A stretch of 20,000 nucleotides of DNA. Source: an uncultured virus (IMG/VR IMGVR_UViG_3300037847_005438) (taxonomy: Duplodnaviria > Heunggongvirae > Uroviricota > Caudoviricetes). This document shows positions 9,080 through 19,043 of this stretch, one piece after another. How positions within the stretch are numbered: the stretch's first letter is position 1; each line of letters begins with the position of its first letter. The stretch covers positions 46,933-66,932 of IMG/VR virus record IMGVR_UViG_3300037847_005438, one strand, 5' to 3'. The notes below the pieces were generated by a model. That model was given only the letters and a program-made list of their open reading frames with translations, was not told the origin of the DNA and did no database searches. Both the position numbers and the translations under genes were made by a program.

Positions 9080-9430
9080 TTATCTTAATGGAAAATTTCT
9101 AAACTCATACTTTCCTCTTTCTTCATTCCATCTAACTTCTAGCGTTTTATCGTTAATTCTGTCTAAAATACGATTTCGCTCTTTTTTACTCATTTTATGT
9201 AGACCAAGATCTTCTTTTTGCAGCATATCTCTTGTTGGTCCTGGTGGTGGCTGACTTTTTCCTTTATAATTTCTTCTATTCTTATCTTTAGTTGCAATAA
9301 TATTTGCTTGATCAACTCTTGTTTTGTCTTGAGCTGCAGGAATAGGGTCTATTTTCATAGGAGATACACCTGATAGCTTTGCTATAGAAGGTTTGTTTCC
9401 TGATTTTAATTTAAACGGTCCTTTTTTCAT
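9080..9430 (-). CDS. Basic hypothetical protein with N-terminal FKLKSGNKPSIAK motif (likely start MKKGPF at 9430)
   Basis: ATG at 9430 directly follows the upstream stop at 9432 and puts the motif near the N-terminus, as in the other two proteins. Confidence 0.8.
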   Translation of the reverse strand: MKKGPFKLKSGNKPSIAKLSGVSPMKIDPIPAAQDKTRVDQANIIATKDKNRRNYKGKSQPPPGPTRDMLQKEDLGLHKMSKKERNRILDRINDKTLEVRWNEERGKYEFRNFPLR

Positions 9431-9431
9431 G

Positions 9432-9668
9432 TTATTTTTCTTTTTTAGTACCTTTACCGTCATTGCCTCGGTTAGCTTTAACCGACTTGAACTTACGGTC
9501 TTTATGGTCGTAGTCTTTATTTTTTATGTTTTTACCTGCTTTTTTGGCAGCACGCCTCTTACGCTGGTTCTCTGCTTTTTTCTTACGTCTATCCTCTGTC
9601 ATAGCCGCACGTTTATCACGAGCCGCCTTCATTCGCTTTGCAGTGGGTGTAAGTTTTTGTTTTGCCAT
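9432..9668 (-). CDS. Highly basic small protein with a degenerate HNH-like segment (KDYDHK...KANRG)
   Basis: 78-aa R/K-rich ORF, first gene of the leftward arm; HNH resemblance is weak. Confidence 0.6.
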   Translation of the reverse strand: MAKQKLTPTAKRMKAARDKRAAMTEDRRKKKAENQRKRRAAKKAGKNIKNKDYDHKDRKFKSVKANRGNDGKGTKKEK

Positions 9669-9673
9669 ATCTC

Positions 9674-9703
9674 TATTATTACATAGTAATAAAGTAATTT
9701 ACA
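9674..9703 (-). promoter_or_regulatory. Putative class II (phage sigma-dependent) promoter TGTAAAT-N12-ATGTAATAATA
   Basis: Both boxes and the 12-nt spacing are identical to the plus-strand site at 17685-17714; heads the leftward arm. Confidence 0.65.
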
Positions 9704-9740
9704 CTTGTTTTTAGGATATTATAAATATTGGGGTATAGTG

Positions 9741-9854
9741 CTGCGCCCCCCTCCCGGGGACCCGGCTCCCCCCAAAAATGATTTGCGAAAGCCCCACGGG
9801 CCCCTACGGCCAGTGATTTGCCGTAAACTTTTTACGTTTTGCTGGCTAGCCCCT
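9741..9854. other. GC-rich non-coding island at the strand switch; G-quadruplex-type motif on the minus strand (9746-9773)
   Basis: C runs of 6, 3, 3 and 6 on the plus strand; TGATTTGC twice (9779, 9814); hairpin TACGGC...GCCGTA; sharply unlike the AT-rich flanks. Confidence 0.6.
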
Positions 9855-9874
9855 ATATACTAAATGTTTTTTTA

Positions 9875-9906
9875 CACAAACTAGTTTAGTGTACAGTTAG
9901 ATAATA
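9875..9906 (+). promoter_or_regulatory. Class I repeated motif CACAAA-N18-AGATAATA, copy 1 (putative early promoter)
   Basis: Exact boxes and spacing recur nine times in the same orientation, mostly just upstream of ORFs. Confidence 0.75.
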
Positions 9907-9951
9907 TATATGTAACTAAAATAAAATATTAACTAACTAAATAATTAAATT

Positions 9952-10170
9952 ATGGAAACTAAAAGATTCGTTATCAGAAAAACATTAATCGGAAAGAATA
10001 CAATAATAACTTTCGTTAATAAGAAAAAAGAAACAGTGAAGTATAATCATGATGAAGTATACAATGCTCACAAAGAAAGATTCGACAACATGAACTGTTT
10101 CGCAAAGTATAAAAGTTATACTAATAGTAATGCGATGCCAGCATTCTGCCGCGACTTACAAATAAAGTAA
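9952..10170 (+). CDS. Hypothetical protein, paralog of 10820-11050
   Basis: KRFVIRKTLIGKN...YNHD.VY...KYKSYT shared with the paralog. Confidence 0.85.
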   Translation: METKRFVIRKTLIGKNTIITFVNKKKETVKYNHDEVYNAHKERFDNMNCFAKYKSYTNSNAMPAFCRDLQIK

Positions 10171-10234
10171 GTCAAGGCAACGCACTTGAAAAAGCAAGTG
10201 TGTATAGCACTTGTGTATAGCAACGTCACTCGTA

Positions 10235-10266
10235 CACAAACTTAATTAGACCACCATCAGATAATA
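10235..10266 (+). promoter_or_regulatory. Class I motif copy 2
   Basis: CACAAA cttaattagaccaccatc AGATAATA. Confidence 0.75.
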
Positions 10267-10280
10267 TATGTGAATATAAA

Positions 10281-10454
10281 ATGAAAACTATGAAGATAGA
10301 ATTATACAATCATCAGAATGAATTAATTGGAATATTACTAGAATTTCCATTTGAAGAAACTAATCAAGAACTTGAAGAATTAATAGTAGATTATATTAAT
10401 GAAAATACTGATGTTGAAGAAAATGAAATTGATTACTATAAAATTGTAGAGTAA
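10281..10454 (+). CDS. Very acidic 57-aa protein
   Basis: Manual translation MKTMKIELYNHQNELIGILLEFPFEETNQELEELIVDYINENTDVEENEIDYYKIVE; fills the space between two motif copies. Confidence 0.75.
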   Translation: MKTMKIELYNHQNELIGILLEFPFEETNQELEELIVDYINENTDVEENEIDYYKIVE

Positions 10455-10455
10455 T

Positions 10456-10487
10456 CACAAACTAAATAAGTCACTCGTCAGATAATA
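10456..10487 (+). promoter_or_regulatory. Class I motif copy 3
   Basis: CACAAA ctaaataagtcactcgtc AGATAATA. Confidence 0.75.
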
Positions 10488-10511
10488 TATATGAACTTAA
10501 AATAATAAATT

Positions 10512-10700
10512 ATGTCGAGAAATAAAATAATAGAAGAAACAGTAGAAACTATAATAGATAATATAGAAGAGAAATTAGTAGAATATATGTTTGACCTTGG
10601 TGACTACTCAGAAACTAATAATAAATTTTATAAAGATAAAGAAGAATTAACTAACTTAGTAATAAAAGAATTATACAATAGAGTAAGAGAAGTAGAATAG
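10512..10700 (+). CDS. Acidic helical hypothetical protein
   Basis: 62-aa ORF downstream of motif copy 3. Confidence 0.75.
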   Translation: MSRNKIIEETVETIIDNIEEKLVEYMFDLGDYSETNNKFYKDKEELTNLVIKELYNRVREVE

Positions 10701-10744
10701 TACCTCTATACTAAAAATATCAAGTAAACAAAGTATATACTTTT

Positions 10745-10776
10745 CACAAACTAAAATCGATGTAAGTAAGATAATA
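10745..10776 (+). promoter_or_regulatory. Class I motif copy 4
   Basis: CACAAA ctaaaatcgatgtaagta AGATAATA. Confidence 0.75.
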
Positions 10777-10819
10777 TAAATGTAAAAACAAATAACTAAC
10801 TAAATAAAATTAAGAAATT

Positions 10820-11050
10820 ATGGAAAATGTATTAAAAAGTAAAAGATTCGTAGTAAGAAAGTCATTAATTGGTAAAAATCAAGTAATAGTATTTACTAAC
10901 AAAAAAGGTGATGAAGTAACCTATAACCATGATAAAGTATATGAAATCATGAAAGAAAAATTAACTACTCTACCATGTTGGGAAAAATATAAGTCATACA
11001 CAGCGACTAATAACATACCAACTATATGTAGAAACAAAGAACTAATTTAG
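10820..11050 (+). CDS. Hypothetical protein, paralog of 9952-10170
   Basis: KRFVVRKSLIGKN...YNHDKVY...KYKSYT. Confidence 0.85.
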   Translation: MENVLKSKRFVVRKSLIGKNQVIVFTNKKGDEVTYNHDKVYEIMKEKLTTLPCWEKYKSYTATNNIPTICRNKELI

Positions 11051-11061
11051 TTAGTTAGACT

Positions 11062-11137
11062 AGTCGAGGTGTGCACTTACGGTACTAATAATAGTATCTT
11101 GGACGGAAACGGTAATTAGTGTACACCTCTACTTTTT
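11062..11137 (+). ncRNA. Putative structured RNA element (three-way junction) followed by a U-tract
   Basis: 12-bp stem GAGGTGTGCACT/AGTGTACACCTC with one G-U, enclosing a GGTACTA/TAGTATC hairpin and CG-GAAA-CG. Confidence 0.45.
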
Positions 11138-11143
11138 ACAAAG

Positions 11144-11191
11144 TGTGACATTAGGTAGTTAATATAACTAGAGTAACAGGCAATTGTCACA
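11144..11191. repeat. TGTGACA...TGTCACA inverted-repeat element, copy 1
   Basis: 7-bp arms 34 nt apart; 25/28 nt identical to 16278-16305. Confidence 0.75.
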
Positions 11192-11219
11192 AATTAAATT
11201 AAACAATAGTAAGATAATA
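11188..11219 (+). promoter_or_regulatory. Class I motif copy 5
   Basis: CACAAA ttaaattaaacaatagta AGATAATA; overlaps the right arm of the inverted-repeat element. Confidence 0.75.
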
Positions 11220-11231
11220 TAAATAAAAATT

Positions 11232-11420
11232 ATGAAATATATAACAGTGTTAGATTTTGAAGATGGTAGAATATACCAATATGATATAGGTTTTCAAGTA
11301 AACAAACTTGGTTGGAATCCTGATAGTGAATCGTGTGAAGGTTATTTAGTAAATAAAGGTCATAATTTAAGTAACTGTGAGTGGATGGTTCATAAAGATA
11401 GACAAGTAATAACAAAGTAA
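11232..11420 (+). CDS. Hypothetical protein
   Basis: 62-aa ORF after motif copy 5. Confidence 0.75.
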   Translation: MKYITVLDFEDGRIYQYDIGFQVNKLGWNPDSESCEGYLVNKGHNLSNCEWMVHKDRQVITK

Positions 11421-11421
11421 T

Positions 11422-11616
11422 ATGAAGATAGATTTTGATAAAGTAGAGGTATTAGAAGTAAGTAATATAAATCAATGTGACTACCCAGAGTATTGTGACG
11501 CTTACATATCAGAGGCGAACTACAATGGTAAAACAATGAGTGATGAGATGTTAGATGAGATAAATGATAACTATCCTGACTTTGTATACATACAAGTAAT
11601 GGAACAAATAAACTAA
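11422..11616 (+). CDS. Acidic hypothetical protein
   Basis: 64 aa, 15 D/E versus 3 K; tight operon spacing. Confidence 0.8.
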   Translation: MKIDFDKVEVLEVSNINQCDYPEYCDAYISEANYNGKTMSDEMLDEINDNYPDFVYIQVMEQIN

Positions 11617-11619
11617 ACT

Positions 11620-11871
11620 ATGAAAAAAAGAAATTATATACTAACCTTAGTTGACTATGGTTATAAAGTTGAAGCGTGGGATGATTATGGTAAATATGTG
11701 TGTGTCTATGAAAAAACTCGTGAAGCAGCAAGTGAATTTATAATGAACTGGTGGGAAATGTCAAAGCAAAACAAAAAAAGTGATGACAACTGGAATAAAG
11801 CAATGCTAAAAATGATAGAGTTAGACAAAAAGTATGGTATTAATAAAGATAATAGAGACGGACTAGATTAA
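11620..11871 (+). CDS. Hypothetical protein
   Basis: 83-aa ORF, tight operon spacing. Confidence 0.75.
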   Translation: MKKRNYILTLVDYGYKVEAWDDYGKYVCVYEKTREAASEFIMNWWEMSKQNKKSDDNWNKAMLKMIELDKKYGINKDNRDGLD

Positions 11872-11872
11872 A

Positions 11873-12097
11873 GTGTTAAACAAAATAATAAATAAAATGG
11901 TAAAAATAGTAGAAAAAAACGTAGCAGAATTAATAATAGTTTCATTAATATTACTAGTGTTTCTAACAAGTTGTGGAACCGCTAAACAAATACAAGAAGA
12001 ACCAATGAAAGAGTGTTGTAAGAAAACTGCACAAGCGGTATATGAATATGAAGGATGGGTGGTAAGTGATTGTGAAAACTGTGACGAAATAGACTAA
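11873..12097 (+). CDS. Putative small lipoprotein
   Basis: Hydrophobic stretch LIIVSLILLVF followed by lipobox LTSC; Cys-rich C-terminus; start codon uncertain. Confidence 0.65.
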   Translation: MLNKIINKMVKIVEKNVAELIIVSLILLVFLTSCGTAKQIQEEPMKECCKKTAQAVYEYEGWVVSDCENCDEID

Positions 12098-12168
12098 TGG
12101 GAGCGTGGATAATATTAATAATACTATCGGCAATGGTTTTAAGCTATTTTGGTAGTGAGTACGAGTAA
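12097..12168 (+). CDS. Putative 23-aa single-TM peptide
   Basis: MGAWIILIILSAMVLSYFGSEYE; TAATG-coupled to the upstream gene and ends just before motif copy 6. Confidence 0.5.
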   Translation: MGAWIILIILSAMVLSYFGSEYE

Positions 12169-12170
12169 AA

Positions 12171-12202
12171 CACAAATTAAATTTGACAACAGTAAGATAA
12201 TA
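12171..12202 (+). promoter_or_regulatory. Class I motif copy 6
   Basis: CACAAA ttaaatttgacaacagta AGATAATA. Confidence 0.75.
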
Positions 12203-12229
12203 AATGTGTAACAAATAAAATAACTAACT

Positions 12230-12400
12230 ATGAACAAAATTAAATTTTTAAAGCAAGACAAAATTAGATTAAATGGTATAACTTACAAGCCTTATACTAT
12301 ATGCCAACTACCTGAAAGATTTGGCTTAGTAGATAATGATGGCTACTCATACTTTACTGAGTGGTTCAATTACAAAGGTTTTACTTACATAGCAGAATAA
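12230..12400 (+). CDS. Hypothetical 56-aa protein
   Basis: Manual translation MNKIKFLKQDKIRLNGITYKPYTICQLPERFGLVDNDGYSYFTEWFNYKGFTYIAE. Confidence 0.7.
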   Translation: MNKIKFLKQDKIRLNGITYKPYTICQLPERFGLVDNDGYSYFTEWFNYKGFTYIAE

Positions 12401-12401
12401 T

Positions 12402-12611
12402 ATGAAGTGTAAGTGTAATAATATAATACCTCAAGGCCGAGTTAATCTTGGATTCAAAGTATGCGTAGACTGCTCTACGACCGAAGCATATGGTTGTGCT
12501 CCAATTATAAACCATAAAACCGGTAATTCCATACAGATTATGTCAAGCAGTGACGCTGCTCGCATATCCAAGATAACTCAGCGTAGAGGTTATGGTACAA
12601 TGTTAGGTTAA
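12402..12611 (+). CDS. Zinc-finger protein resembling the DksA/TraR C4 finger
   Basis: CKC..IIPQGR.....VCVDC pattern. Confidence 0.55.
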   Translation: MKCKCNNIIPQGRVNLGFKVCVDCSTTEAYGCAPIINHKTGNSIQIMSSSDAARISKITQRRGYGTMLG

Positions 12612-12643
12612 CACAAATTAAATTAAATTAGTAACAGATAATA
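12612..12643 (+). promoter_or_regulatory. Class I motif copy 7
   Basis: CACAAA ttaaattaaattagtaac AGATAATA; starts immediately after the upstream stop codon. Confidence 0.75.
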
Positions 12644-12657
12644 TAATAAAATCAAAT

Positions 12658-12945
12658 ATGAAAAAACTAACTAAACAAAAAGTAAAACAGTATTTCTCTT
12701 ACAGGTCAGATGATAAATTACTACATTGTCCTGAAGCAATTGCCAACGCTTGTAATAGTATGGCTGATGATTTTAGTAATCACGAGTTTGCTGATGTTGA
12801 TGCACTAGATCTTATGAGGTTATTACTACTTAACACAGCGTTAAATGGTAAAGGTATACCAACACATAGTTATGGTTTTCATACAGCAACAGGTCGAGCA
12901 ATTATTAATAAACTACAAATGAAATATTATGAGTATAAAAAATAA
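12658..12945 (+). CDS. Hypothetical protein
   Basis: 95-aa ORF after motif copy 7. Confidence 0.75.
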   Translation: MKKLTKQKVKQYFSYRSDDKLLHCPEAIANACNSMADDFSNHEFADVDALDLMRLLLLNTALNGKGIPTHSYGFHTATGRAIINKLQMKYYEYKK

Positions 12946-13417
12946 ATTACAACTACTTGGTATACAAGAGGTTACAACTAAAAGACAAGAGAAAAATGGT
13001 ACACGTGAATTTAAGTTACCAATAAACGATCCTTATGGTGATGCTATACACGTCGCATCTTTCGCCACTGGCTACGTTAGACGTACTAGAACTACTGGTC
13101 GTAGTGATTGGCAACTAAATAAAACAAAGCAAGAAAAGCGCTACGTAGAAATGAAAGATTATGATACAGGTAGACCGGTAATTAGAACATTTAAAGATAC
13201 TGTTAGAATATTAATAGAAGATGAGCAAGAAAGGTTAGAGTATTTAATAAGCTATTGTCTCAAAAACTATTACATCGGTCAAGCAAATATGTTATCAAAT
13301 GGTAAATATATACCTAAATGGAAGTATGATAACAAGTGTAATGAGTGTGATAGAGATGATGGCGCTTTACAAAACTTATCAGTAATAGTAAATAACGAAA
13401 GATATAGAATAATATAA
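12929..13417 (+). CDS. Hypothetical protein
   Basis: 162-aa ORF overlapping the upstream gene. Confidence 0.8.
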   Translation: MSIKNKLQLLGIQEVTTKRQEKNGTREFKLPINDPYGDAIHVASFATGYVRRTRTTGRSDWQLNKTKQEKRYVEMKDYDTGRPVIRTFKDTVRILIEDEQERLEYLISYCLKNYYIGQANMLSNGKYIPKWKYDNKCNECDRDDGALQNLSVIVNNERYRII

Positions 13418-13418
13418 T

Positions 13419-13559
13419 ATGGGAAAACAAAACGAAAAACTACTAAAAAATATAGAATTATATGAGCAAAAAAAGAAAGCTGAACAGCAAAAATCCAAAA
13501 TACTGGGACAAAAGCCAGATAACCGAAAAACCAATAGCAAAGAAAAAGCTAATGTGTGA
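13419..13559 (+). CDS. Possible 46-aa Lys-rich peptide
   Basis: ATG directly after the upstream stop; overlaps 13462-13599 in another frame, so one of the two may be spurious. Confidence 0.35.
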   Translation: MGKQNEKLLKNIELYEQKKKAEQQKSKILGQKPDNRKTNSKEKANV

Positions 13560-13599
13560 AACTAAAGGTGTTAAAATATATGGAATATGGTACGCTTAG
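13462..13599 (+). CDS. Basic 45-aa hypothetical protein
   Basis: Manual translation MSKKRKLNSKNPKYWDKSQITEKPIAKKKLMCETKGVKIYGIWYA. Confidence 0.55.
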   Translation: MSKKRKLNSKNPKYWDKSQITEKPIAKKKLMCETKGVKIYGIWYA

Positions 13600-13620
13600 T
13601 AGTCATATGGCCTAGTTAAT

Positions 13621-13836
13621 ACGAGGTGAGGGTGGTAGCGCGTGAGACGTGTAGCAGAGGAACGTGGGTTGAAATTACCTGGTGCACAAAATAATACGTT
13701 CTAATAATATCTGCATCTTACTCACTTGGCAGAACGGCAGGATAAAGCAAATATAAGGAAGAACAAAGATCGAGCAGGTACAATTTAAAATACCAAGGAG
13801 TCGAGCCTTATAAGAACCACACCTGCCCGACCTCGT
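13621..13836 (+). ncRNA. Putative ~216-nt multi-helix structured ncRNA with a possible pseudoknot, family not recognised
   Basis: Nine mutually compatible nested helices plus one crossing helix in a GC-enriched intergenic gap (detailed under findings). Confidence 0.6.
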
Positions 13837-13841
13837 TTTAT

Positions 13842-13873
13842 CACAAATTAAAATAGAAGTAAAATAGATAATA
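13842..13873 (+). promoter_or_regulatory. Class I motif copy 8
   Basis: CACAAA ttaaaatagaagtaaaat AGATAATA. Confidence 0.75.
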
Positions 13874-13890
13874 TAATAAAATTAAATACA

Positions 13891-14292
13891 ATGACAGAAA
13901 ACGAATTATTACTAAAAATTGAAGGCTTAGAAAAAGCTATCAAAGAACATCAAGACTTTGTTAATACGTATGGTAATACGTTAACAACTACTAAACAAGA
14001 ACTAGTTGACTTACACAAACCAGAGTTAACTACATCTCAAATGGAAGCTATTGAACGTGCTGTGGAACAAGCTGTTAATGAGTTTGATTTTACAGATACA
14101 GATAACTATGAAATAGATTATAGTCTTGACTATGATAATAGAGTACAATGTGAATCACATGAGTTTATTAATGAAAGTGATTTAGTTGAAATGATAGTTA
14201 ACAGAGTGTGTAAATTATTCAAAGAAGTTGAAGAGTTAGACACAACAGAACCTGACCATCATAAAGTTACTCACGTAGAAAAAATTATATAA
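13891..14292 (+). CDS. Acidic hypothetical protein with N-terminal coiled coil
   Basis: 133-aa D/E-rich ORF. Confidence 0.8.
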   Translation: MTENELLLKIEGLEKAIKEHQDFVNTYGNTLTTTKQELVDLHKPELTTSQMEAIERAVEQAVNEFDFTDTDNYEIDYSLDYDNRVQCESHEFINESDLVEMIVNRVCKLFKEVEELDTTEPDHHKVTHVEKII

Positions 14293-14293
14293 T

Positions 14294-14902
14294 ATGAATC
14301 TATTAACACAAAATAGTAAACTAAAACGTACATCTAAAGAATTAGGCTTAAGAGTATTTAACTTTGGTATACCTGCATACAGGTCTGCTAGTGGTAAATT
14401 AACATGTCCATTTGCTGATGAGTGTGTTAAGTTTTGTTATGCTAAAAAAGGTGCATACATATGGAGTAATGTACAGCCTGCGTTTGAAAAGCGTTATCAA
14501 CTTAGTAAAACAGATAAATTTATACCAGCGATGATGGACGAGATAGTTAACAAGCGTCCTGATTATATCAGAGTACACGATAGCGGTGATTATTATTCAC
14601 CTGCATACTTAGAAAAATGGTTACGTATAGCTAGAACATTTCCTGAAGTTAAATTCTACAGTTATACTAATTGTGTAAATATGCTTAAAAATGTAGATTT
14701 ACCTGATAACTATGATATTATATTCTCAGACAGTGGTAAACAAAAACATATGATAGATCAAACTATAGATCGTCATACTAAAATATTTGACAGTCAAGAT
14801 GAATTAATGTCTAACGGTTACATAGATGCATCTAAGATTGATTTATATGCAACGAAATGGTTTAACAAAGATAATATTAACGTAGGGCTTATAGCTCATT
14901 AA
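14294..14902 (+). CDS. Phage gp88-family protein (Cys-triad, radical-SAM-like)
   Basis: NSKL, TCPFADECVKFCYAKKG, IRVHDSGDYY, FYSYT motifs. Confidence 0.75.
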   Translation: MNLLTQNSKLKRTSKELGLRVFNFGIPAYRSASGKLTCPFADECVKFCYAKKGAYIWSNVQPAFEKRYQLSKTDKFIPAMMDEIVNKRPDYIRVHDSGDYYSPAYLEKWLRIARTFPEVKFYSYTNCVNMLKNVDLPDNYDIIFSDSGKQKHMIDQTIDRHTKIFDSQDELMSNGYIDASKIDLYATKWFNKDNINVGLIAH

Positions 14903-14912
14903 AAATTAAATT

Positions 14913-15296
14913 ATGTCAACAAGAGCACAAATACGATTTGCTACGCGTGAAGCAGGTCAATCATTTAACAAGCATCCAAATGCTATACACGCACAATTTT
15001 ACAAGCACAGCGATGGTTATCCTGAAGGTTTAGGTATAGATATAGCTAATTCTATTATGAATAATGTAGGATTAAATGGTATTGAAATAGAACCATTAAC
15101 ACATAAGCATAGTGATTTAGAATATATATATTATATTTGGCAAGCACCAGGTAAAGAAACATTTATAAGTATATTTGAAGTAAATATGATACCAGCTTAC
15201 TGCGAAACTTGTGGTCAAGACGTACAACTTGAAGATGCTTGTGTATTTGTAGGATTACCAACAGAATTAATAAATAAGTATTCACAAACTAAATAA
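14913..15296 (+). CDS. Conserved phage hypothetical protein (MSTR...YxHxDGYP type)
   Basis: MSTRAQI...FYKHSDGYPEGLG...DLEYIYYI; CxxC near the C-terminus. Confidence 0.75.
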   Translation: MSTRAQIRFATREAGQSFNKHPNAIHAQFYKHSDGYPEGLGIDIANSIMNNVGLNGIEIEPLTHKHSDLEYIYYIWQAPGKETFISIFEVNMIPAYCETCGQDVQLEDACVFVGLPTELINKYSQTK

Positions 15297-15314
15297 GAAA
15301 TATGACAGATAATA
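15283..15314 (+). promoter_or_regulatory. Class I motif copy 9 (spans a gene junction)
   Basis: CACAAA ctaaataagaaatatgac AGATAATA; contains the stop at 15296 and the ATG at 15302. Confidence 0.6.
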
Positions 15315-15646
15315 AAAGAGTTACAAATAAACAAATATTAGATAAAATCGACTCGTTAAAAGTAGGTGACGAAGGACTTAACATATTGGCTACCAAAATA
15401 GTAAGTCGTATGGTAAAACTCAAGTCAATGGAGGACTGGTTTCATCATGTTGCTAAGTCTGATAAAGCTTGGTCATCGACTTACAAAGATCTTAATTTAT
15501 CAGAAGAAGTTGAGGCTTTGGGTGAAGCTGCAAAGCTTATGACATTAATGAATATATGTCAAGAAGATGAAGAGTATGAAAAATGCGCCTTAATTAAAAA
15601 TCGTATGGACGAGGTTAATAAAATACTTAAAAAATATAAAAAATGA
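15302..15646 (+). CDS. Hypothetical protein with C-terminal UVR (UvrB/UvrC)-like motif
   Basis: EDEEYEKCALIKNRMDEV resembles the E(D/E)(Y/F)ExAAxxRD consensus. Confidence 0.6.
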   Translation: MTDNKRVTNKQILDKIDSLKVGDEGLNILATKIVSRMVKLKSMEDWFHHVAKSDKAWSSTYKDLNLSEEVEALGEAAKLMTLMNICQEDEEYEKCALIKNRMDEVNKILKKYKK

Positions 15647-15744
15647 CACGAAATGAACAGCAAATGTATAGAGACATTAGCAACTTAACTAAAGCATTAG
15701 AAAAATTAGTAAAAGTATTAACTAAATTAGCAAAAGAACAATGA
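15643..15744 (+). CDS. 33-aa helical peptide
   Basis: MTRNEQQMYRDISNLTKALEKLVKVLTKLAKEQ; ATGA overlaps at both ends. Confidence 0.65.
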   Translation: MTRNEQQMYRDISNLTKALEKLVKVLTKLAKEQ

Positions 15745-16226
15745 ATATATTTTATTTAGATAAATGCCCTGAAAAAGCGGCTAGACTACAGTATAATAAA
15801 CATGTAGTTAAAATGATACTTGAGTCAGCTCAAATGTTATGTACAGCTCATCATTGTATTATGGGTGCTGATGCTAATGTACCTTATAAAGCAGCACATA
15901 GAAATCATCCATCAACTAAATGGGCTAGACAATCTGGTGAAAATTATACTTGGCTGTATAGACACATGATGGAACTAGGTAGAGAGTACGAAAAACGTTA
16001 TGGTAAAAAACATCTATCTATAATTAAATGTGAAGATCCATTGTCTATATTGCCAGGTGGTATATTAGAAACAGGATTAACTGAAATGCCTCAGTGTATG
16101 CCAGATGAATATAAAGATAAATGTAGTATACAAGCTTATTGGAATTATTACATAGGCGAAAAACACGTAGTAGCAAACCCTAAAACTGAAAAATTATATG
16201 AGCGAAGACCTCAAGAAACGTATTAA
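15741..16226 (+). CDS. Pyrimidine-dimer DNA glycosylase / endonuclease V-like protein
   Basis: MNIFYLD...NKHVVKMILESAQML...YKAAHRNHPSTKW...EYEKRYGKKH. Confidence 0.75.
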   Translation: MNIFYLDKCPEKAARLQYNKHVVKMILESAQMLCTAHHCIMGADANVPYKAAHRNHPSTKWARQSGENYTWLYRHMMELGREYEKRYGKKHLSIIKCEDPLSILPGGILETGLTEMPQCMPDEYKDKCSIQAYWNYYIGEKHVVANPKTEKLYERRPQETY

Positions 16227-16259
16227 AAAAGTTTTAATTACATTAAAACCACAAGGGAC

Positions 16260-16305
16260 TGTGACAACAGCCCCTAAATAACTAGAGTAATAGGCTAATG
16301 TCACA
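16260..16305. repeat. TGTGACA...TGTCACA inverted-repeat element, copy 2
   Basis: Arms 32 nt apart; the right arm overlaps the ATG of the HTH gene at 16298. Confidence 0.75.
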
Positions 16306-16918
16306 CGAAAGAAAATTAAAGTATTTAAATCAAAACCAAATTGTATACCGTAGACAACCAATAAAAGATATACCAGACATTGATAATGAAGTATATATGT
16401 TTTATGTTAACGGCACACATGAGTGTTACGAACTGTTTAGATCATCAGCTAAAATAACTACATACAAATCTCTTAAATGGCATTTGTTAGTATTATGGTA
16501 TTTAAACCCTGATTTAGATCAAGATAAGTTTATGCAACTAGCAGAAGTTATATGCCACAAACCAAATGGCTTTGTAAGTTTTGCTATACACATTGATTTA
16601 TTACGTAAAATAGTATATGAAGTTAGCATGCTAGATTTAGATGAGCCACCTAAAAACAAGCTGCGTAAAGTTATATTTAAACCATTTACTAGAGTTAGTA
16701 AAGAAGAAAAATTACGTATTGTAGGTGAGTTAATAGGTAGAACAAAACGTATAACTCAAGATGATATTTACGACTGCATGTTAGAAATAAATAATAATAA
16801 AGAAAAAATAACTATAGCTAAACTAGCTAAGTTATTAAGCTGTACAAGTAGAACAATACACAGGAACATAGGTGTAGAATTAAAACGAGAAAAAGAATTA
16901 TTAAATAAACAAATATGA
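16298..16918 (+). CDS. DNA-binding protein with C-terminal helix-turn-helix
   Basis: ITIAKLAKLLSCTSRTIHRNI is a typical HTH. Confidence 0.7.
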   Translation: MSHERKLKYLNQNQIVYRRQPIKDIPDIDNEVYMFYVNGTHECYELFRSSAKITTYKSLKWHLLVLWYLNPDLDQDKFMQLAEVICHKPNGFVSFAIHIDLLRKIVYEVSMLDLDEPPKNKLRKVIFKPFTRVSKEEKLRIVGELIGRTKRITQDDIYDCMLEINNNKEKITIAKLAKLLSCTSRTIHRNIGVELKREKELLNKQI

Positions 16919-17676
16919 AAAGTTATAATATACAGAACTATATTAGATATAAAAAAGATTTAGAAAAAACAATAGCAAGAATAAAAATAAAAGAACATTA
17001 TTCTTTATATGATAGAGATACATTAGTAACTTTATTTATGCCACTTGTAGAAAATATAGCTAGAAAATTTGCAACATCACAACAGGCTAGCGGTGTAATG
17101 AGTATAAATGATCTTATACAAGAAGGTAATTTAAACTTAATAAAAGCAGTTGATCGTATAGATTGGGATAAAATGTCAGAGTCTGAAGATCAAGAAAAAA
17201 CTATGAAATCATTTTTATCTAAACGTATTAAAGGTGGTATACGTAGGGCAATAGATATTAACAGAGGTCAAATGCGTTTACCAGAACATATAACAAACGA
17301 AATACGTAAAAACTTTGGTAAAGATAAAAAAATGGTTGCTATGTTTTTTAACTCTATATTTTTAAGTATAGATGCGGGTTCAAGAGATGATGAAGATATG
17401 TTGTATCAAATAGAAGATCAGTCAGAGCCTTATAATCAAGAATTTTTAAATATGTATCTTACAAGCTTATTAAAACAACATCTTGATGACAAAGAGTTTC
17501 ATGTATTAAGATTAAGTTATGGTCTTGATTGTGACAAGCACTCAGCTAAAGAAATTGCTAAGTATTTAGGCATTGAAGGCAGTGGTGCTTATGTACGTGT
17601 TTCGCAGTTAAAAAAGCAAGCAGTTAATAAATTAATAGAAAATGTAGATCACTCGCAAGTGATTGATTATCTGTAA
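16915..17676 (+). CDS. Phage-encoded RNA polymerase sigma-70 family factor
   Basis: Region 2 PLVENIARKF...DLIQEGNLNLIKAVDRID...MRLP; region 4 LDDKEFHVLRLSYGLD...KEIAKYLGI...RVSQLKKQAVNKL. Confidence 0.9.
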   Translation: MKSYNIQNYIRYKKDLEKTIARIKIKEHYSLYDRDTLVTLFMPLVENIARKFATSQQASGVMSINDLIQEGNLNLIKAVDRIDWDKMSESEDQEKTMKSFLSKRIKGGIRRAIDINRGQMRLPEHITNEIRKNFGKDKKMVAMFFNSIFLSIDAGSRDDEDMLYQIEDQSEPYNQEFLNMYLTSLLKQHLDDKEFHVLRLSYGLDCDKHSAKEIAKYLGIEGSGAYVRVSQLKKQAVNKLIENVDHSQVIDYL

Positions 17677-17684
17677 GTTACTAT

Positions 17685-17714
17685 TGTAAATATGAACAAA
17701 AACATGTAATAATA
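17685..17714 (+). promoter_or_regulatory. Putative class II promoter TGTAAAT-N12-ATGTAATAATA
   Basis: Intergenic between the sigma gene and the ERF gene; identical boxes and spacing to 9674-9703 (minus strand). Confidence 0.65.
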
Positions 17715-17737
17715 TATATACACCAAATACCAAAAAT

Positions 17738-18343
17738 ATGAAAGAATTAAACCAAAAACTAGCTCAAATACAAACTGAGCTAAAAGCAAAAAAATCGAGT
17801 TACAACTCATTCGGTAAATACTATTTTAGAAAAGCCGAAGACATTTTAGAGGCTACAAAGCCTTTTCTTTTAAAACATGGCGTTACAGTTACTCTTAATG
17901 AAGAGCTAATCATGGTGGTAAATGATGATACAACTGACCCTGTTCCAACGATCAAATCAACAGCAACAATAACAGATGGCGAAAATGCTATACACGCGAC
18001 CGCTATAGTAGGTGTAGACCTTAATCAAAAAGGTATGCAAACCGCTCAACAATTCGGTGCCGCATCTTCTTATGGAAAGAAATATGCATTAGGTAATTTA
18101 TTTTTAATTGATGATACTCAAGATGCCGACGCTAGTAATGATCATGGTAAATCTAAAGCTGTGTCTAAAATTAAACAAGCTGCAAAACCAGCTATAACTA
18201 AAGAGCAATTGAAGAAAGCTGAGGAGTATGTATTAGCAGGTGGAGAAGTTAAAGCTATTGAAACAAAATACAAACTAACAGTTGAACAAATAAATAAATT
18301 AAATGACCTTAGAAAAGAAAAGTCAGATCTTACAAAGGCTTAA
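17738..18343 (+). CDS. erf: ERF-family single-strand annealing protein
   Basis: IQTELKAKK..YNSFGKYYFR..EDIL...AQQFGAASSYGKKYALGNLFLIDD..DAD. Confidence 0.88.
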   Translation: MKELNQKLAQIQTELKAKKSSYNSFGKYYFRKAEDILEATKPFLLKHGVTVTLNEELIMVVNDDTTDPVPTIKSTATITDGENAIHATAIVGVDLNQKGMQTAQQFGAASSYGKKYALGNLFLIDDTQDADASNDHGKSKAVSKIKQAAKPAITKEQLKKAEEYVLAGGEVKAIETKYKLTVEQINKLNDLRKEKSDLTKA

Positions 18344-19043
18344 AAACGACGAAGACTACTACGGTGAGTTTGGTAATCAGTTTATATCTAACTCACACGT
18401 TGGTAGATTATTAAAAGATCCATTAAGAGCCTTTGAACCAAGCAAACCATCTCCAGCATTTTTAGTTGGTGGGTATTTTCATACTTGTATATTAGAACCT
18501 GATAAAATAGATAAGTATAAAGTTGTTAAATCAACTACTAGAAATACTAAAGCTTACAAAGATGTTGCTGGTGGCGAGCTGTGTCTATTGCAACACGAAG
18601 TAGATACAATTGAATTAATGAGAGATAAAGTTATGCAAAACGATATATGTAAAGATCTTATACAAGGTCCACAAATTGAATACGAACAACCACAGATAAT
18701 AAATATGTTCGACAACGACTGGAAAGGTAAAGCAGATATTGTTAACCATAACGAAAAACTAGTTATTGATTTAAAAACAACAGCAGACATTGATAAGTTT
18801 CAATGGTCAGCGACTAAGTATAACTATGACTCACAAGCTTATATCTATAGTAAGTTATTTGGATATGAGATGTTATTTATAGTTATCGATAAAGCCACTC
18901 ATAAAATAGGTATGTTTGATTGTTCGCCTGAGTTTTATGAACGTGGGGAAGACAAGGTGCGTAGAGCAAGTGAAGCTTATGACTTGTTTTACAAGACCAA
19001 GGACTTTGATCCTAAACAATATTTCATAAGCAAAACCTTATAA
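18303..19043 (+). CDS. PD-(D/E)XK exonuclease (RecE/exonuclease VIII-like, DUF3799-type)
   Basis: ISNS, GGYFHTCILEP, WKGKADI, IDLKTT, YDSQAYIY motifs; adjacent to ERF. Confidence 0.85.
   Translation: MTLEKKSQILQRLKNDEDYYGEFGNQFISNSHVGRLLKDPLRAFEPSKPSPAFLVGGYFHTCILEPDKIDKYKVVKSTTRNTKAYKDVAGGELCLLQHEVDTIELMRDKVMQNDICKDLIQGPQIEYEQPQIINMFDNDWKGKADIVNHNEKLVIDLKTTADIDKFQWSATKYNYDSQAYIYSKLFGYEMLFIVIDKATHKIGMFDCSPEFYERGEDKVRRASEAYDLFYKTKDFDPKQYFISKTL

What the first reader, a model, noticed from the sequence alone, without database searches (positions are those of the whole stretch)
13621..13836. Large multi-helix, pseudoknotted ncRNA candidate in the early region
Seen: a GC-enriched intergenic gap that can be paired extensively by hand. 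Closing helix ACGAGGT(13621-27)/ACCTCGT(13830-36); second helix GTGGT(13632-36)/ACCAC(13816-20). Arm 1 nests GTGAG/CTCAC, GCAGA/TCTGC and GGAACGT/ACGTTCT, capped by GGGT-TGAAATT-ACCT (T-loop/GNRA-like). Arm 2 nests TATAAGG/CCTTATA, TCGA/TCGA and GGTA/TACC. GGCAGG(13736-41) can pair with CCTGCC(13822-27), crossing the second helix as a pseudoknot. Inference: the order P1-P2-long hairpin-pseudoknot strand-domain-P2'-pseudoknot'-P1' echoes the RNase P catalytic-domain topology, but the RNase P conserved sequences are absent. It could be an undescribed phage ribozyme, decoy or scaffold RNA. It ends in a T-run directly before class I motif copy 8.
Basis: partly seen in the sequence, partly recalled or inferred. 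Interest (0 to 1): 0.78.

Follow-up and report, generated by a model that had tools for sequence, protein, structure and literature searches.

The report
Conserved pseudoknot RNA in marine phages
The flagged stretch is a real, previously uncatalogued structured RNA shared by many uncultured marine phages, with an almost unchanging pseudoknotted core and swappable side arms, whose job is still unknown.

Summary
Folding energy alone is no better than shuffled sequence (z about 0). Comparison settles it. I recovered 134 distinct full copies from viral and marine metagenome contigs.

All copies share:
- a closing helix P1 that varies by compensatory changes;
- an almost invariant core of GGGTGGT, AACGGCAGGATAAAGC and ACCAC-R-CCTGCC-C;
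- two optional, highly variable arms inserted at fixed points.

The pseudoknot helix GGCAGG/CCTGCC has two compensatory pairs in one lineage and otherwise only G.U-preserving changes. GTGGT/ACCAC never varies, so it is untested.

The element sits 5-20 nt after the stop codon of small early genes. It ends in a T-run in 95 of 134 copies. In the rest it is followed on the same strand by more stem-closed RNA modules or tRNA genes. It is single-copy in 5 of 5 complete genomes and absent from close relatives.

It has no Rfam 15, ARAGORN, GenBank-phage or bacterial-genome match.

Best reading: a terminator-embedded pseudoknot RNA at the 3' end of an early transcript, whose invariant core is a specific recognition site. 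Whether it acts as a binder or decoy, a ligand sensor, a ribozyme or a 3'-end protector is open. The RNase P resemblance is topological only.

The parts
13462..13599 (+). Small basic early ORF (45 aa, ends ..KIYGIWYA) whose 3' untranslated end carries the RNA
   Evidence: An ORF with the same ..KVY.VWY tail ends a median 11 nt before GGGTGGT in 55 of 124 copies with enough flank. No Pfam or PHROG family.
13621..13627 (+). P1 5' strand ACGAGGT, then linker GA 13628-13629 and GG 13630-13631
   Evidence: 5 of 7 P1 pairs change on both sides.
13632..13636 (+). P2 5' strand GTGGT, part of the invariant GGGTGGT at 13630-13636
   Evidence: GGGTGGT in 131 of 134 copies. Of the other 3, one is a real GCGTGGT and two are mis-anchored or chimeric. 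The helix never varies, so covariation gives no information.
13637..13732 (+). Arm 1, optional. Base helix GTGAG 13642-13646 / CTCAC 13721-13725, a conserved internal loop, then window-specific inner helices
   Evidence: Arm 1 is replaced by 2-3 nt in 47 of 134 copies. GTAAG/CTTAC in L194 is a compensatory variant. Folded alone.
13733..13751 (+). Invariant strand: AAC, the pseudoknot 5' strand GGCAGG (13736-13741), then ATAAAGCAAA
   Evidence: This strand was partly fixed by my search patterns. L381 carries AGTAGG with CCTACT opposite.
13752..13812 (+). Arm 2, variable. Closing helix TATAAGG 13752-13758 / CCTTATA 13806-13812
   Evidence: The register 'AAAA | helix | AGA' holds in 63 of 97 distinct arms. 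The closing helix averages 5.56 bp against 3.23 bp for swapped partners.
13813..13829 (+). AGA, P2 3' strand ACCAC (13816-13820), A, pseudoknot 3' strand CCTGCC (13822-13827), CG
   Evidence: This 3' strand was free in the 17- and 19-mer scans. Beyond A/G at the spacer, the only changes are C-to-T giving G.U (9 copies) and the compensated CCTACT.
13830..13840 (+). P1 3' strand ACCTCGT and T-run TTTT
   Evidence: A T-run of 3 or more follows P1 in 95 of 134 copies.
13842..13888 (+). Repeated promoter-like motif for the next gene (13891-14292). Not part of the RNA
   Evidence: Copies elsewhere in the genome. 15 matches against 4.5 expected. Best sigma-70-like site TTAAAA-18-TATAAT lies at 13848-13877.

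Best explanation
The stretch encodes a phage-specific structured RNA that forms the 3' end of an early transcript.

Shown:
- A closing helix P1 encloses an almost invariant core that pairs as a pseudoknot (GTGGT with ACCAC, GGCAGG with CCTGCC).
- Two dispensable, mosaic arms are inserted at fixed points in that core.
- The element lies a few nucleotides after the stop codon of a small early gene, on the coding strand.
- It usually ends in a T-run just before the next promoter-like motif.

Inferred:
- The last 25 nt (ACCAC, A, CCTGCC, CG, ACCTCGT) zip onto three upstream segments as they emerge from the polymerase.
- This closes the domain just ahead of the T-run. P1 plus the T-run then terminates the transcript and leaves a compact, sealed RNA.
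- The invariant junction and helix nucleotides form a sequence-specific recognition surface for a partner, either a host or phage protein or a small molecule.
- The RNA therefore acts early in infection as an accessory, trans-acting binder or decoy, and the arms are exchangeable add-on modules.

The partner is unknown.
For: Reality and strand:
- 134 distinct copies.
- P1 occurs in 61 classes with many compensatory variants.
- Pair counts beat shuffles and slid registers.
- G.U pairs occur only as read on the + strand.
- All 21 neighbouring tRNA genes lie downstream on the same strand. 11 of them start 12-15 nt after CCTGCC.

Position at a 3' end:
- Directly after three different early ORFs.
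- T-run in 95 of 134 copies.
- A promoter-like motif follows.
- The closest relative has a plain 69-nt hairpin with the same stem and T-run at this site.
- A second plain GAGGTG..CACCTC hairpin with a T-run lies at window 11066-11135.

Sequence-specific function:
- The core is identical between phages whose flanking proteins are only 68-83% identical, while P1 and the arms vary freely.
- GTGGT/ACCAC is unchanged in all correctly anchored copies, although those segments were not fixed by the 17- and 19-mer scans.

Accessory nature:
- One copy in each of 5 of 5 complete genomes.
- No match in 4 of 5 related complete genomes, and one weak 17.9-bit hit in the fifth.
- None in 78 related neighbourhoods at E up to 0.01; one 13.9-bit match at E 0.83.
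- Absent from 185,579 bacterial and archaeal species genomes by two exact patterns.

Modularity:
- 124 of 214 arms fall into one similarity cluster that mixes arm-1 and arm-2 positions.
- The same modules occur alone inside their own stems.
Against: - No partner or activity is shown.
- Folding energy is not better than shuffles.
- GTGGT/ACCAC has no covariation.
- The pseudoknot covariation comes from one lineage only (L381/L555).
- My search patterns fixed part of the core, so its invariance is partly by ascertainment.
- The crude closing-helix test for arm 1 is weak: 5.0 bp against 4.0 bp for swapped partners.
- The terminator scan did not call this site, because its loop limit is 8 nt.
- 39 of 134 copies lack a T-run.
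- Transcription is not demonstrated. Contigs of one RNA library cover the core segments at the highest summed depth of the stretch, but such libraries can hold DNA, and depths sum over relatives.
Confidence: 0.42

Rival explanations
1. It is a cis-acting, terminator-embedded aptamer (a riboswitch-like attenuator). A ligand or factor stabilises or blocks the pseudoknot core. That decides whether P1 closes before the T-run, and so whether transcription stops or reads through into the next gene, RNA module or tRNA.
For: - A conserved interior lies inside a stem followed by a T-run in 95 of 134 copies.
- The three 3' strands are contiguous and come last.
- There is a precedent: an aptamer almost wholly embedded in an intrinsic terminator, the HMP-PP riboswitch (PMC6478431; abstract and passages read).
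- tRNAs or further modules lie 3-6 nt behind P1 in some copies and need read-through.
Against: - There is no constant downstream gene class; the next feature may be an ORF, a tRNA or an RNA module.
- The next gene has its own promoter-like motif.
- I found no alternative pairing that would exclude P1.
- 39 of 134 copies have no T-run.
Confidence: 0.2
2. It is a 3'-end protective knot or an elaborate terminator. The threaded three-helix stack blocks 3'-to-5' exonucleases and stabilises early mRNAs. The conserved nucleotides serve the fold only.
For: - It lies at the 3' ends of three different early genes.
- It is interchangeable with a plain hairpin in relatives.
- The continuous 3' strand pairs with three segments.
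- A-rich strands are available to line the grooves.
Against: - A plain hairpin evidently suffices in relatives and elsewhere in this genome.
- A fold-only constraint should let GTGGT/ACCAC and GGCAGG/CCTGCC covary as freely as P1, yet they are nearly invariant.
- Internal copies of tandem arrays are not at a 3' end.
Confidence: 0.15
3. It is a new small self-cleaving or processing ribozyme that cuts early transcripts or RNA-tRNA arrays into units.
For: - A compact pseudoknot core with invariant junction nucleotides and optional peripheral stems is the usual look of small ribozymes.
- Copies occur in tandem arrays and next to tRNA genes.
- Phage ribozymes beside tRNAs are known: the theta ribozymes (PMC10879173; abstract read).
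Against: - No known ribozyme model matches.
- Other modules in the same arrays lack the core.
- RNase P would already free the tRNA 5' ends.
- No read ends could be examined, because only contigs were available.
Confidence: 0.12
4. It is a reduced RNase P-like catalytic RNA acting on the neighbouring tRNA precursors.
For: - The helix order is the same as I recall for the RNase P catalytic domain.
- tRNA genes lie directly downstream in 17 of 134 loci.
Against: - No RNase P family matches at E up to 10.
- The core is about 42 nt with no specificity domain.
- This window and its whole genome have no tRNA-like T-loop motif, and ARAGORN finds no tRNA in the window.
Confidence: 0.02
5. It is not an RNA. 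It is a chance set of helices, a DNA-level site or an unrecognised coding region.
For: Folding z-scores are about 0.
Against: - Compensatory and G.U changes are specific to the + strand.
- There is no ORF.
- Arms differ by large insertions and deletions and can be absent.
Confidence: 0.02

Closest known systems
RNase P RNA catalytic domain
   Same: The order of strands is the same: closing helix, second helix, hairpin, long-range helix strand, further domain, then the three 3' strands in a row. The RNase P order is from my recall. The RNA also sometimes sits next to tRNA genes.
   Different: No match to any RNase P model. The core is about 42 nt. No specificity domain. The conserved nucleotides are unrelated.
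HMP-PP (thiS motif) riboswitch, a terminator-embedded aptamer (PMC6478431)
   Same: A conserved, pseudoknot-capable interior lies inside a stem that is followed by a run of U.
   Different: No Rfam match. Not tied to one gene class. Lies behind rather than ahead of a gene. No competing structure found. Much larger optional arms. Found in phages only.
Theta (minimal HDV-like) ribozymes beside phage tRNAs (PMC10879173)
   Same: Small pseudoknotted phage RNAs placed next to tRNA genes.
   Different: This element lies upstream of the tRNA. Only one nucleotide separates the two 3' strands, which leaves no room for the joining strand and extra helices that I recall for HDV-like ribozymes. No HDV-family model matches.
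GOLLD and ROOL large phage-borne RNAs
   Same: Orphan structured RNAs of phages, often near tRNA genes (my recall; title and abstract of bioRxiv 10.1101/2024.12.08.627333 seen in the listing).
   Different: Those are several-fold larger. No Rfam match here.
Candidate structured RNAs of IMG/VR (Fremin et al. 2023, PMC10690425)
   Same: Same data source and the same kind of object. That catalogue holds 8495 unnamed candidates of 29-151 nt from viral contigs.
   Different: I could not tell whether this motif is among them. The alignment files could not be read. The readable tables hold none of four core strings, and supplementary file 4 holds none of six contig names.

Membership tests
RNase P RNA | Match to an RNase P covariance model (conserved P4 region and core) | tested here: not met
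   0 Rfam matches at gathering score and at E up to 10 in the window. 0 to the element at E up to 1 in seven other loci.
RNase P RNA | Strand order P1, P2, P3 hairpin, P4, ..., P2', P4', P1' | tested here: met
   The order is seen in the window and kept in all 134 copies. The RNase P order itself is recalled, not taken from a call.
RNase P RNA | Cleaves pre-tRNA 5' leaders | not testable with these tools
   Needs an in vitro assay.
Known small self-cleaving ribozymes (hammerhead, twister, twister-sister, pistol, hatchet, HDV-like) | Match to the family's covariance model | tested here: not met
   no match.
Known small self-cleaving ribozymes | Site-specific self-cleavage | not testable with these tools
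   Only contigs were available, so no read ends.
Riboswitch with terminator-embedded aptamer | Conserved interior within a stem followed by a U-run | tested here: met
   95 of 134 copies have a T-run of 3 or more after P1. The core is invariant.
Riboswitch with terminator-embedded aptamer | Constant association with one class of regulated gene | tested here: not met
   The downstream feature is an ORF with its own promoter-like motif, another RNA module or a tRNA.
Riboswitch with terminator-embedded aptamer | Mutually exclusive alternative structure; ligand binding | tested here: inconclusive
   I saw no alternative pairing that excludes P1 by inspection. Ligand binding is not testable here.
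Intrinsic (rho-independent) terminator | G+C-rich stem directly followed by a T-run | tested here: inconclusive
   P1 is 7 bp followed by TTTT, and upstream A's often extend the pairing into the T-run. The scan tool does not call it because the 'loop' is about 200 nt. Plain hairpins with the same stem type exist.
tRNA / tmRNA | Cloverleaf or tmRNA features | tested here: not met
   ARAGORN finds 0 genes in the window.

The most novel reading that the evidence does not exclude
The invariant 42-nt pseudoknot is a new functional RNA class used by lytic marine phages early in infection. It would be either a new small ribozyme, or a high-affinity aptamer or decoy that captures a host factor such as a defence protein or a signalling nucleotide. 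In this reading it is delivered on a terminator-sealed scaffold whose arms are exchangeable RNA modules drawn from a shared phage 'RNA island' toolkit.
Probability: 0.25. Interest if true: 0.9.

Novelty: categorically new. Interest (0 to 1): 0.72.

Why it matters
A roughly 42-nt RNA core stays letter-for-letter the same while the surrounding genes diverge to 68-83% protein identity. That marks it as under very strong selection, yet it matches none of 4227 Rfam families.

That is the profile of host-takeover or counter-defence factors, which so far are almost all proteins.

Its small size, with natural minimal forms of about 60-80 nt, makes it directly testable for ligand binding, self-cleavage, termination control or protein capture.

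The modular arms, and the neighbouring stem-closed modules and tRNA-like elements, point to an unexplored RNA toolkit in these phages.

Tried and rejected
Searches that gave nothing:
- Rfam at gathering score and at permissive E-values: nothing for the element.
- ARAGORN: nothing in the window.
- GenBank phage collection: blastn with 601 nt and megablast with 20 kb gave no match. A 62-nt minimal form gave only two 23-nt matches at E = 5.
- Earlier findings of this scan, looked up by sequence: nothing.
- Bacterial and archaeal genomes: 0 matches for the two-part pattern. The 19-mer gave 3 matches, none with the other core segments.

Errors and wasted scans:
- My first metagenome pattern was wrong by one base, so its zero means nothing.

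Attempts to find core variants:
- A scan that freed the pseudoknot 5' strand found one true variant, L381.
- A scan that freed both pseudoknot strands and the P2 5' strand (61 stretches) found no further variant; the rest were chance matches.

Readings considered and dropped:
- An HDV-like fold: only one nucleotide lies between the two 3' strands.
- A hammerhead reading of the neighbouring T-arm elements: I did not find the second conserved core element that I recall for hammerheads.
- Pairing of GGG with the final CCC: the compensated change in L381 favours the pseudoknot.
- Stop-codon read-through or frameshift stimulation: the arms and the spacing vary too much.

Weak or unusable results:
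- RNA-library contigs cover the core at high summed depth, but this cannot show transcription or ends. Runs X17, X18 and X20 covered only the upstream ORF.
- The Fremin et al. catalogue could not be checked.

Full report
**Setting.**

The window is the last 20 kb of a 66.9-kb viral record that CheckV rates as complete. It encodes:
- a large terminase, GroEL- and GroES-like proteins and a holin on the - strand;
- a block of short + strand genes followed by a sigma-factor-like protein, Erf, an exonuclease and a primase/helicase.

No cultured phage is close. The best GroEL match is 42% identical, and there is no DNA match. The candidate lies between a 45-aa basic ORF (13462-13599) and the ORF at 13891-14292. 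GC there is 0.41 against about 0.30 in the surroundings.

**The observation.**

The arm helices are recovered when each arm is folded alone.

Thermodynamics gives no support:
- the 251-nt stretch folds no better than dinucleotide shuffles on either strand (z = 0.02 and -0.21);
- the arms reach only z = -0.4 to -1.9.

The comparative test does not.

**Relatives.**

Loci around relatives of the flanking proteins showed partial matches. These revealed three conserved blocks separated by unrelated sequence.

The scans that collected relatives were:
- exact-word scans of viral contigs;

These gave 134 distinct full elements of 42-261 nt between the first and last core block. A further 26 incomplete ones were dropped. 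One false positive, L238, was dropped earlier. Two of the 134 are mis-anchored or chimeric (L409, L446).

**Anatomy.**

In order, the element consists of:
1. P1, 5' strand;
2. a 1-4 nt linker;
3. GGGTGGT;
4. either 2-3 nt (47 copies) or arm 1 (87 copies);
5. AACGGCAGGATAAAGC, usually followed by AAAA;
6. arm 2, reduced to 4-5 nt in 4 copies;
7. AGA;
8. ACCAC, then A or G, then CCTGCC, then C;
9. a 0-2 nt linker;
10. P1, 3' strand.

The smallest natural form has neither arm (L103).

**Helix evidence.**

P1:
- 130 of 134 copies have 5 or more contiguous pairs, mostly 7-8.
- They fall into 61 sequence/linker classes, among them ACGAGGT/ACCTCGT, GAGGCT/AGCCTC, ACGAAGTT/AACTTCGT, GAGAGAG/CTCTCTT, AGAGACT/AGTCTCT and GCAAGGT/ACCTTGT.
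- G.U pairs are seen only as read on the + strand.

Pair counts on 31 arm-1-less copies aligned to a model (31 of the 134, 30 distinct rows; the alignment is fitted to the model, which favours the structure):
- 97.6% of cells pair.
- 5 of 7 P1 pairs and 2 of 6 pseudoknot pairs change on both sides.
- 0 of 500 shuffles reach the observed percent paired, pairs changed on both sides, cells so changed, or covariation score; 3 of 500 reach the count of further pair types.
- Slid registers give 31-53% paired.

Pseudoknot helix GGCAGG/CCTGCC:
- Both compensated pairs come from one lineage, AGTAGG with CCTACT (L381/L555).
- In the other copies the free 3' strand changes only C to T, which keeps G.U (9 copies).

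P2 (GTGGT/ACCAC):
- It never varies, so it is supported only by invariant complementarity.
- A stand-alone paralogous module has AGTGT/ACACT at the equivalent place. That is suggestive only.

Arm 2:
- The closing helix keeps one register in 63 of 97 distinct arms, with dozens of different sequences.
- 86% have 5 bp or more, against 19% for swapped partners.

Arm 1:
- The same crude test is weak: 47% against 32%.
- Its base helix does have compensated variants (GTAAG/CTTAC in L194).

**Context.**

- Upstream: the element follows the stop codon of the small basic ORF in 55 of 124 copies with enough flank. It follows two other early ORFs in 19 and 8 copies, and something else in 42.
- Downstream: a T-run of 3 or more follows P1 in 95 of 134 copies. 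Most of the other 39 are followed within a few bases by another stem-closed RNA module.
- tRNAs: tRNA genes are found in 17 of 134 loci. All 21 lie downstream on the same strand, mostly tRNA-Asp, and 11 start 12-15 nt after CCTGCC.
- Promoter: in the window the T-run is followed by the repeated motif, which holds the best sigma-70-like site of the region.
- Plain hairpins: the closest relative, whose neighbouring protein is 97% identical, has a plain 69-nt hairpin with the same stem ends and T-run at this site. The window has another plain GAGGTG..CACCTC hairpin plus T-run at 11066-11135.

P1 plus the T-run therefore looks like this phage group's ordinary early terminator, with the pseudoknot domain carried inside it.

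**Distribution.**

- One copy in this genome and one in each of four other complete viral genomes.
- No match in 4 of 5 related complete genomes, including the closest; one weak hit at E = 0.007 in the fifth.
- No match at E up to 0.01 in 78 related 6-kb neighbourhoods; one 13.9-bit match at E 0.83.
- None in representative genomes of 185,579 prokaryote species by two exact patterns.
- None in GenBank phages.

**Arms as modules.**

124 of 214 arms of 25 nt or more form one similarity cluster that mixes arm-1 and arm-2 positions. The same modules also occur alone within their own stems.

**Expression.**

One metatranscriptomic library holds contigs over the core segments, including a relative with a different arm 2. 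These have the highest summed depth in the 800-nt stretch. DNA carry-over and summing over relatives cannot be excluded, and contigs show no ends.

**Interpretation.**

Shown: a conserved, + strand, pseudoknotted RNA domain at the end of early transcription units, phage-restricted and accessory.

Inferred: the three contiguous 3' strands close the domain just before the T-run, giving a sealed RNA. The near-total invariance of both helices and junctions, beside freely covarying P1 and arms and flanking proteins only 68-83% identical, argues for base-specific recognition of a partner rather than a fold-only role.

I therefore favour a trans-acting binder or decoy (0.42). The rivals are a terminator-embedded sensor (0.20; precedent PMC6478431), a 3'-end protective knot (0.15) and a new ribozyme (0.12; compare PMC10879173). 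None of these can be told apart with the tools at hand.

**Known families.**

- No Rfam 15 family matches the window or the minimal forms.
- The RNase P likeness is one of strand order only.
- My paper searches turned up no description of this motif.
- The one catalogue that might list it, PMC10690425, could not be checked. Its alignment files were unreadable, and the readable tables held none of the strings or contig names I searched for.

Noticed in passing
Related loci, e.g. L388:900-1010, L395:1330-1410, L418:1600-1700 (coordinates in element-oriented sequence): A second uncatalogued RNA type sits in the same islands. 46 elements in 43 of 134 loci carry a canonical T-arm motif (GGTTCGAWTCC) and an acceptor-like stem but a non-tRNA interior. 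ARAGORN does not call them, and Rfam's tRNA model does not match them in the loci tested. This genome has none.
   Followed up: partly
Related loci, e.g. L388, L414, L324 downstream of the element: A stand-alone stem-closed module (AGTGT, GC, GCGAG, a conserved internal loop, variable stem, CTCGC, ATGA, CACT) is a paralogue of the base of arm 1. 12 distinct examples were found. Arrays of such modules are separated by about 6 nt.
   Followed up: partly
window 11066-11135 (+): A 70-nt hairpin, GAGGTGTGCAC...GTGTACACCTC, followed by a T-run (-26.5 kcal/mol). It lies after another early ORF and uses the same stem type as P1.
   Followed up: partly
window 9715-9860: A strikingly G+C-rich, C-run-rich stretch lies in the divergent gap between the - strand late genes and the + strand early genes of a 30% GC genome. 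Fold z = -1.2 and no Rfam match. It could be an origin, a packaging site or another RNA.
   Followed up: partly
window 13419-13559 and 13462-13599 (+): Two overlapping small ORFs lie in different frames. The frame conserved in relatives is the second, a basic protein ending ..KVY.VWY. Neither has a Pfam or PHROG family.
   Followed up: partly
window 10235-18685, 15 sites: The repeated motif CACAAAYTAAAWAYGA occurs 15 times against 4.5 expected. 13 of the 15 sites lie on the + strand, and where I read the sequence (9400-11700 and 13200-14300) they sit ahead of early genes and are followed by a TATAAT-like box. It is probably the early promoter.
   Followed up: partly
L410 (1445-nt metagenome contig): Two copies of the element lie in opposite orientation on one short contig. 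This may be an assembly artefact.
   Followed up: no
window 14294-14902 (+): A protein of Pfam family GP88 (E = 2.6e-38) is widespread among related marine viral contigs, with 142 confirmed relatives.
   Followed up: no
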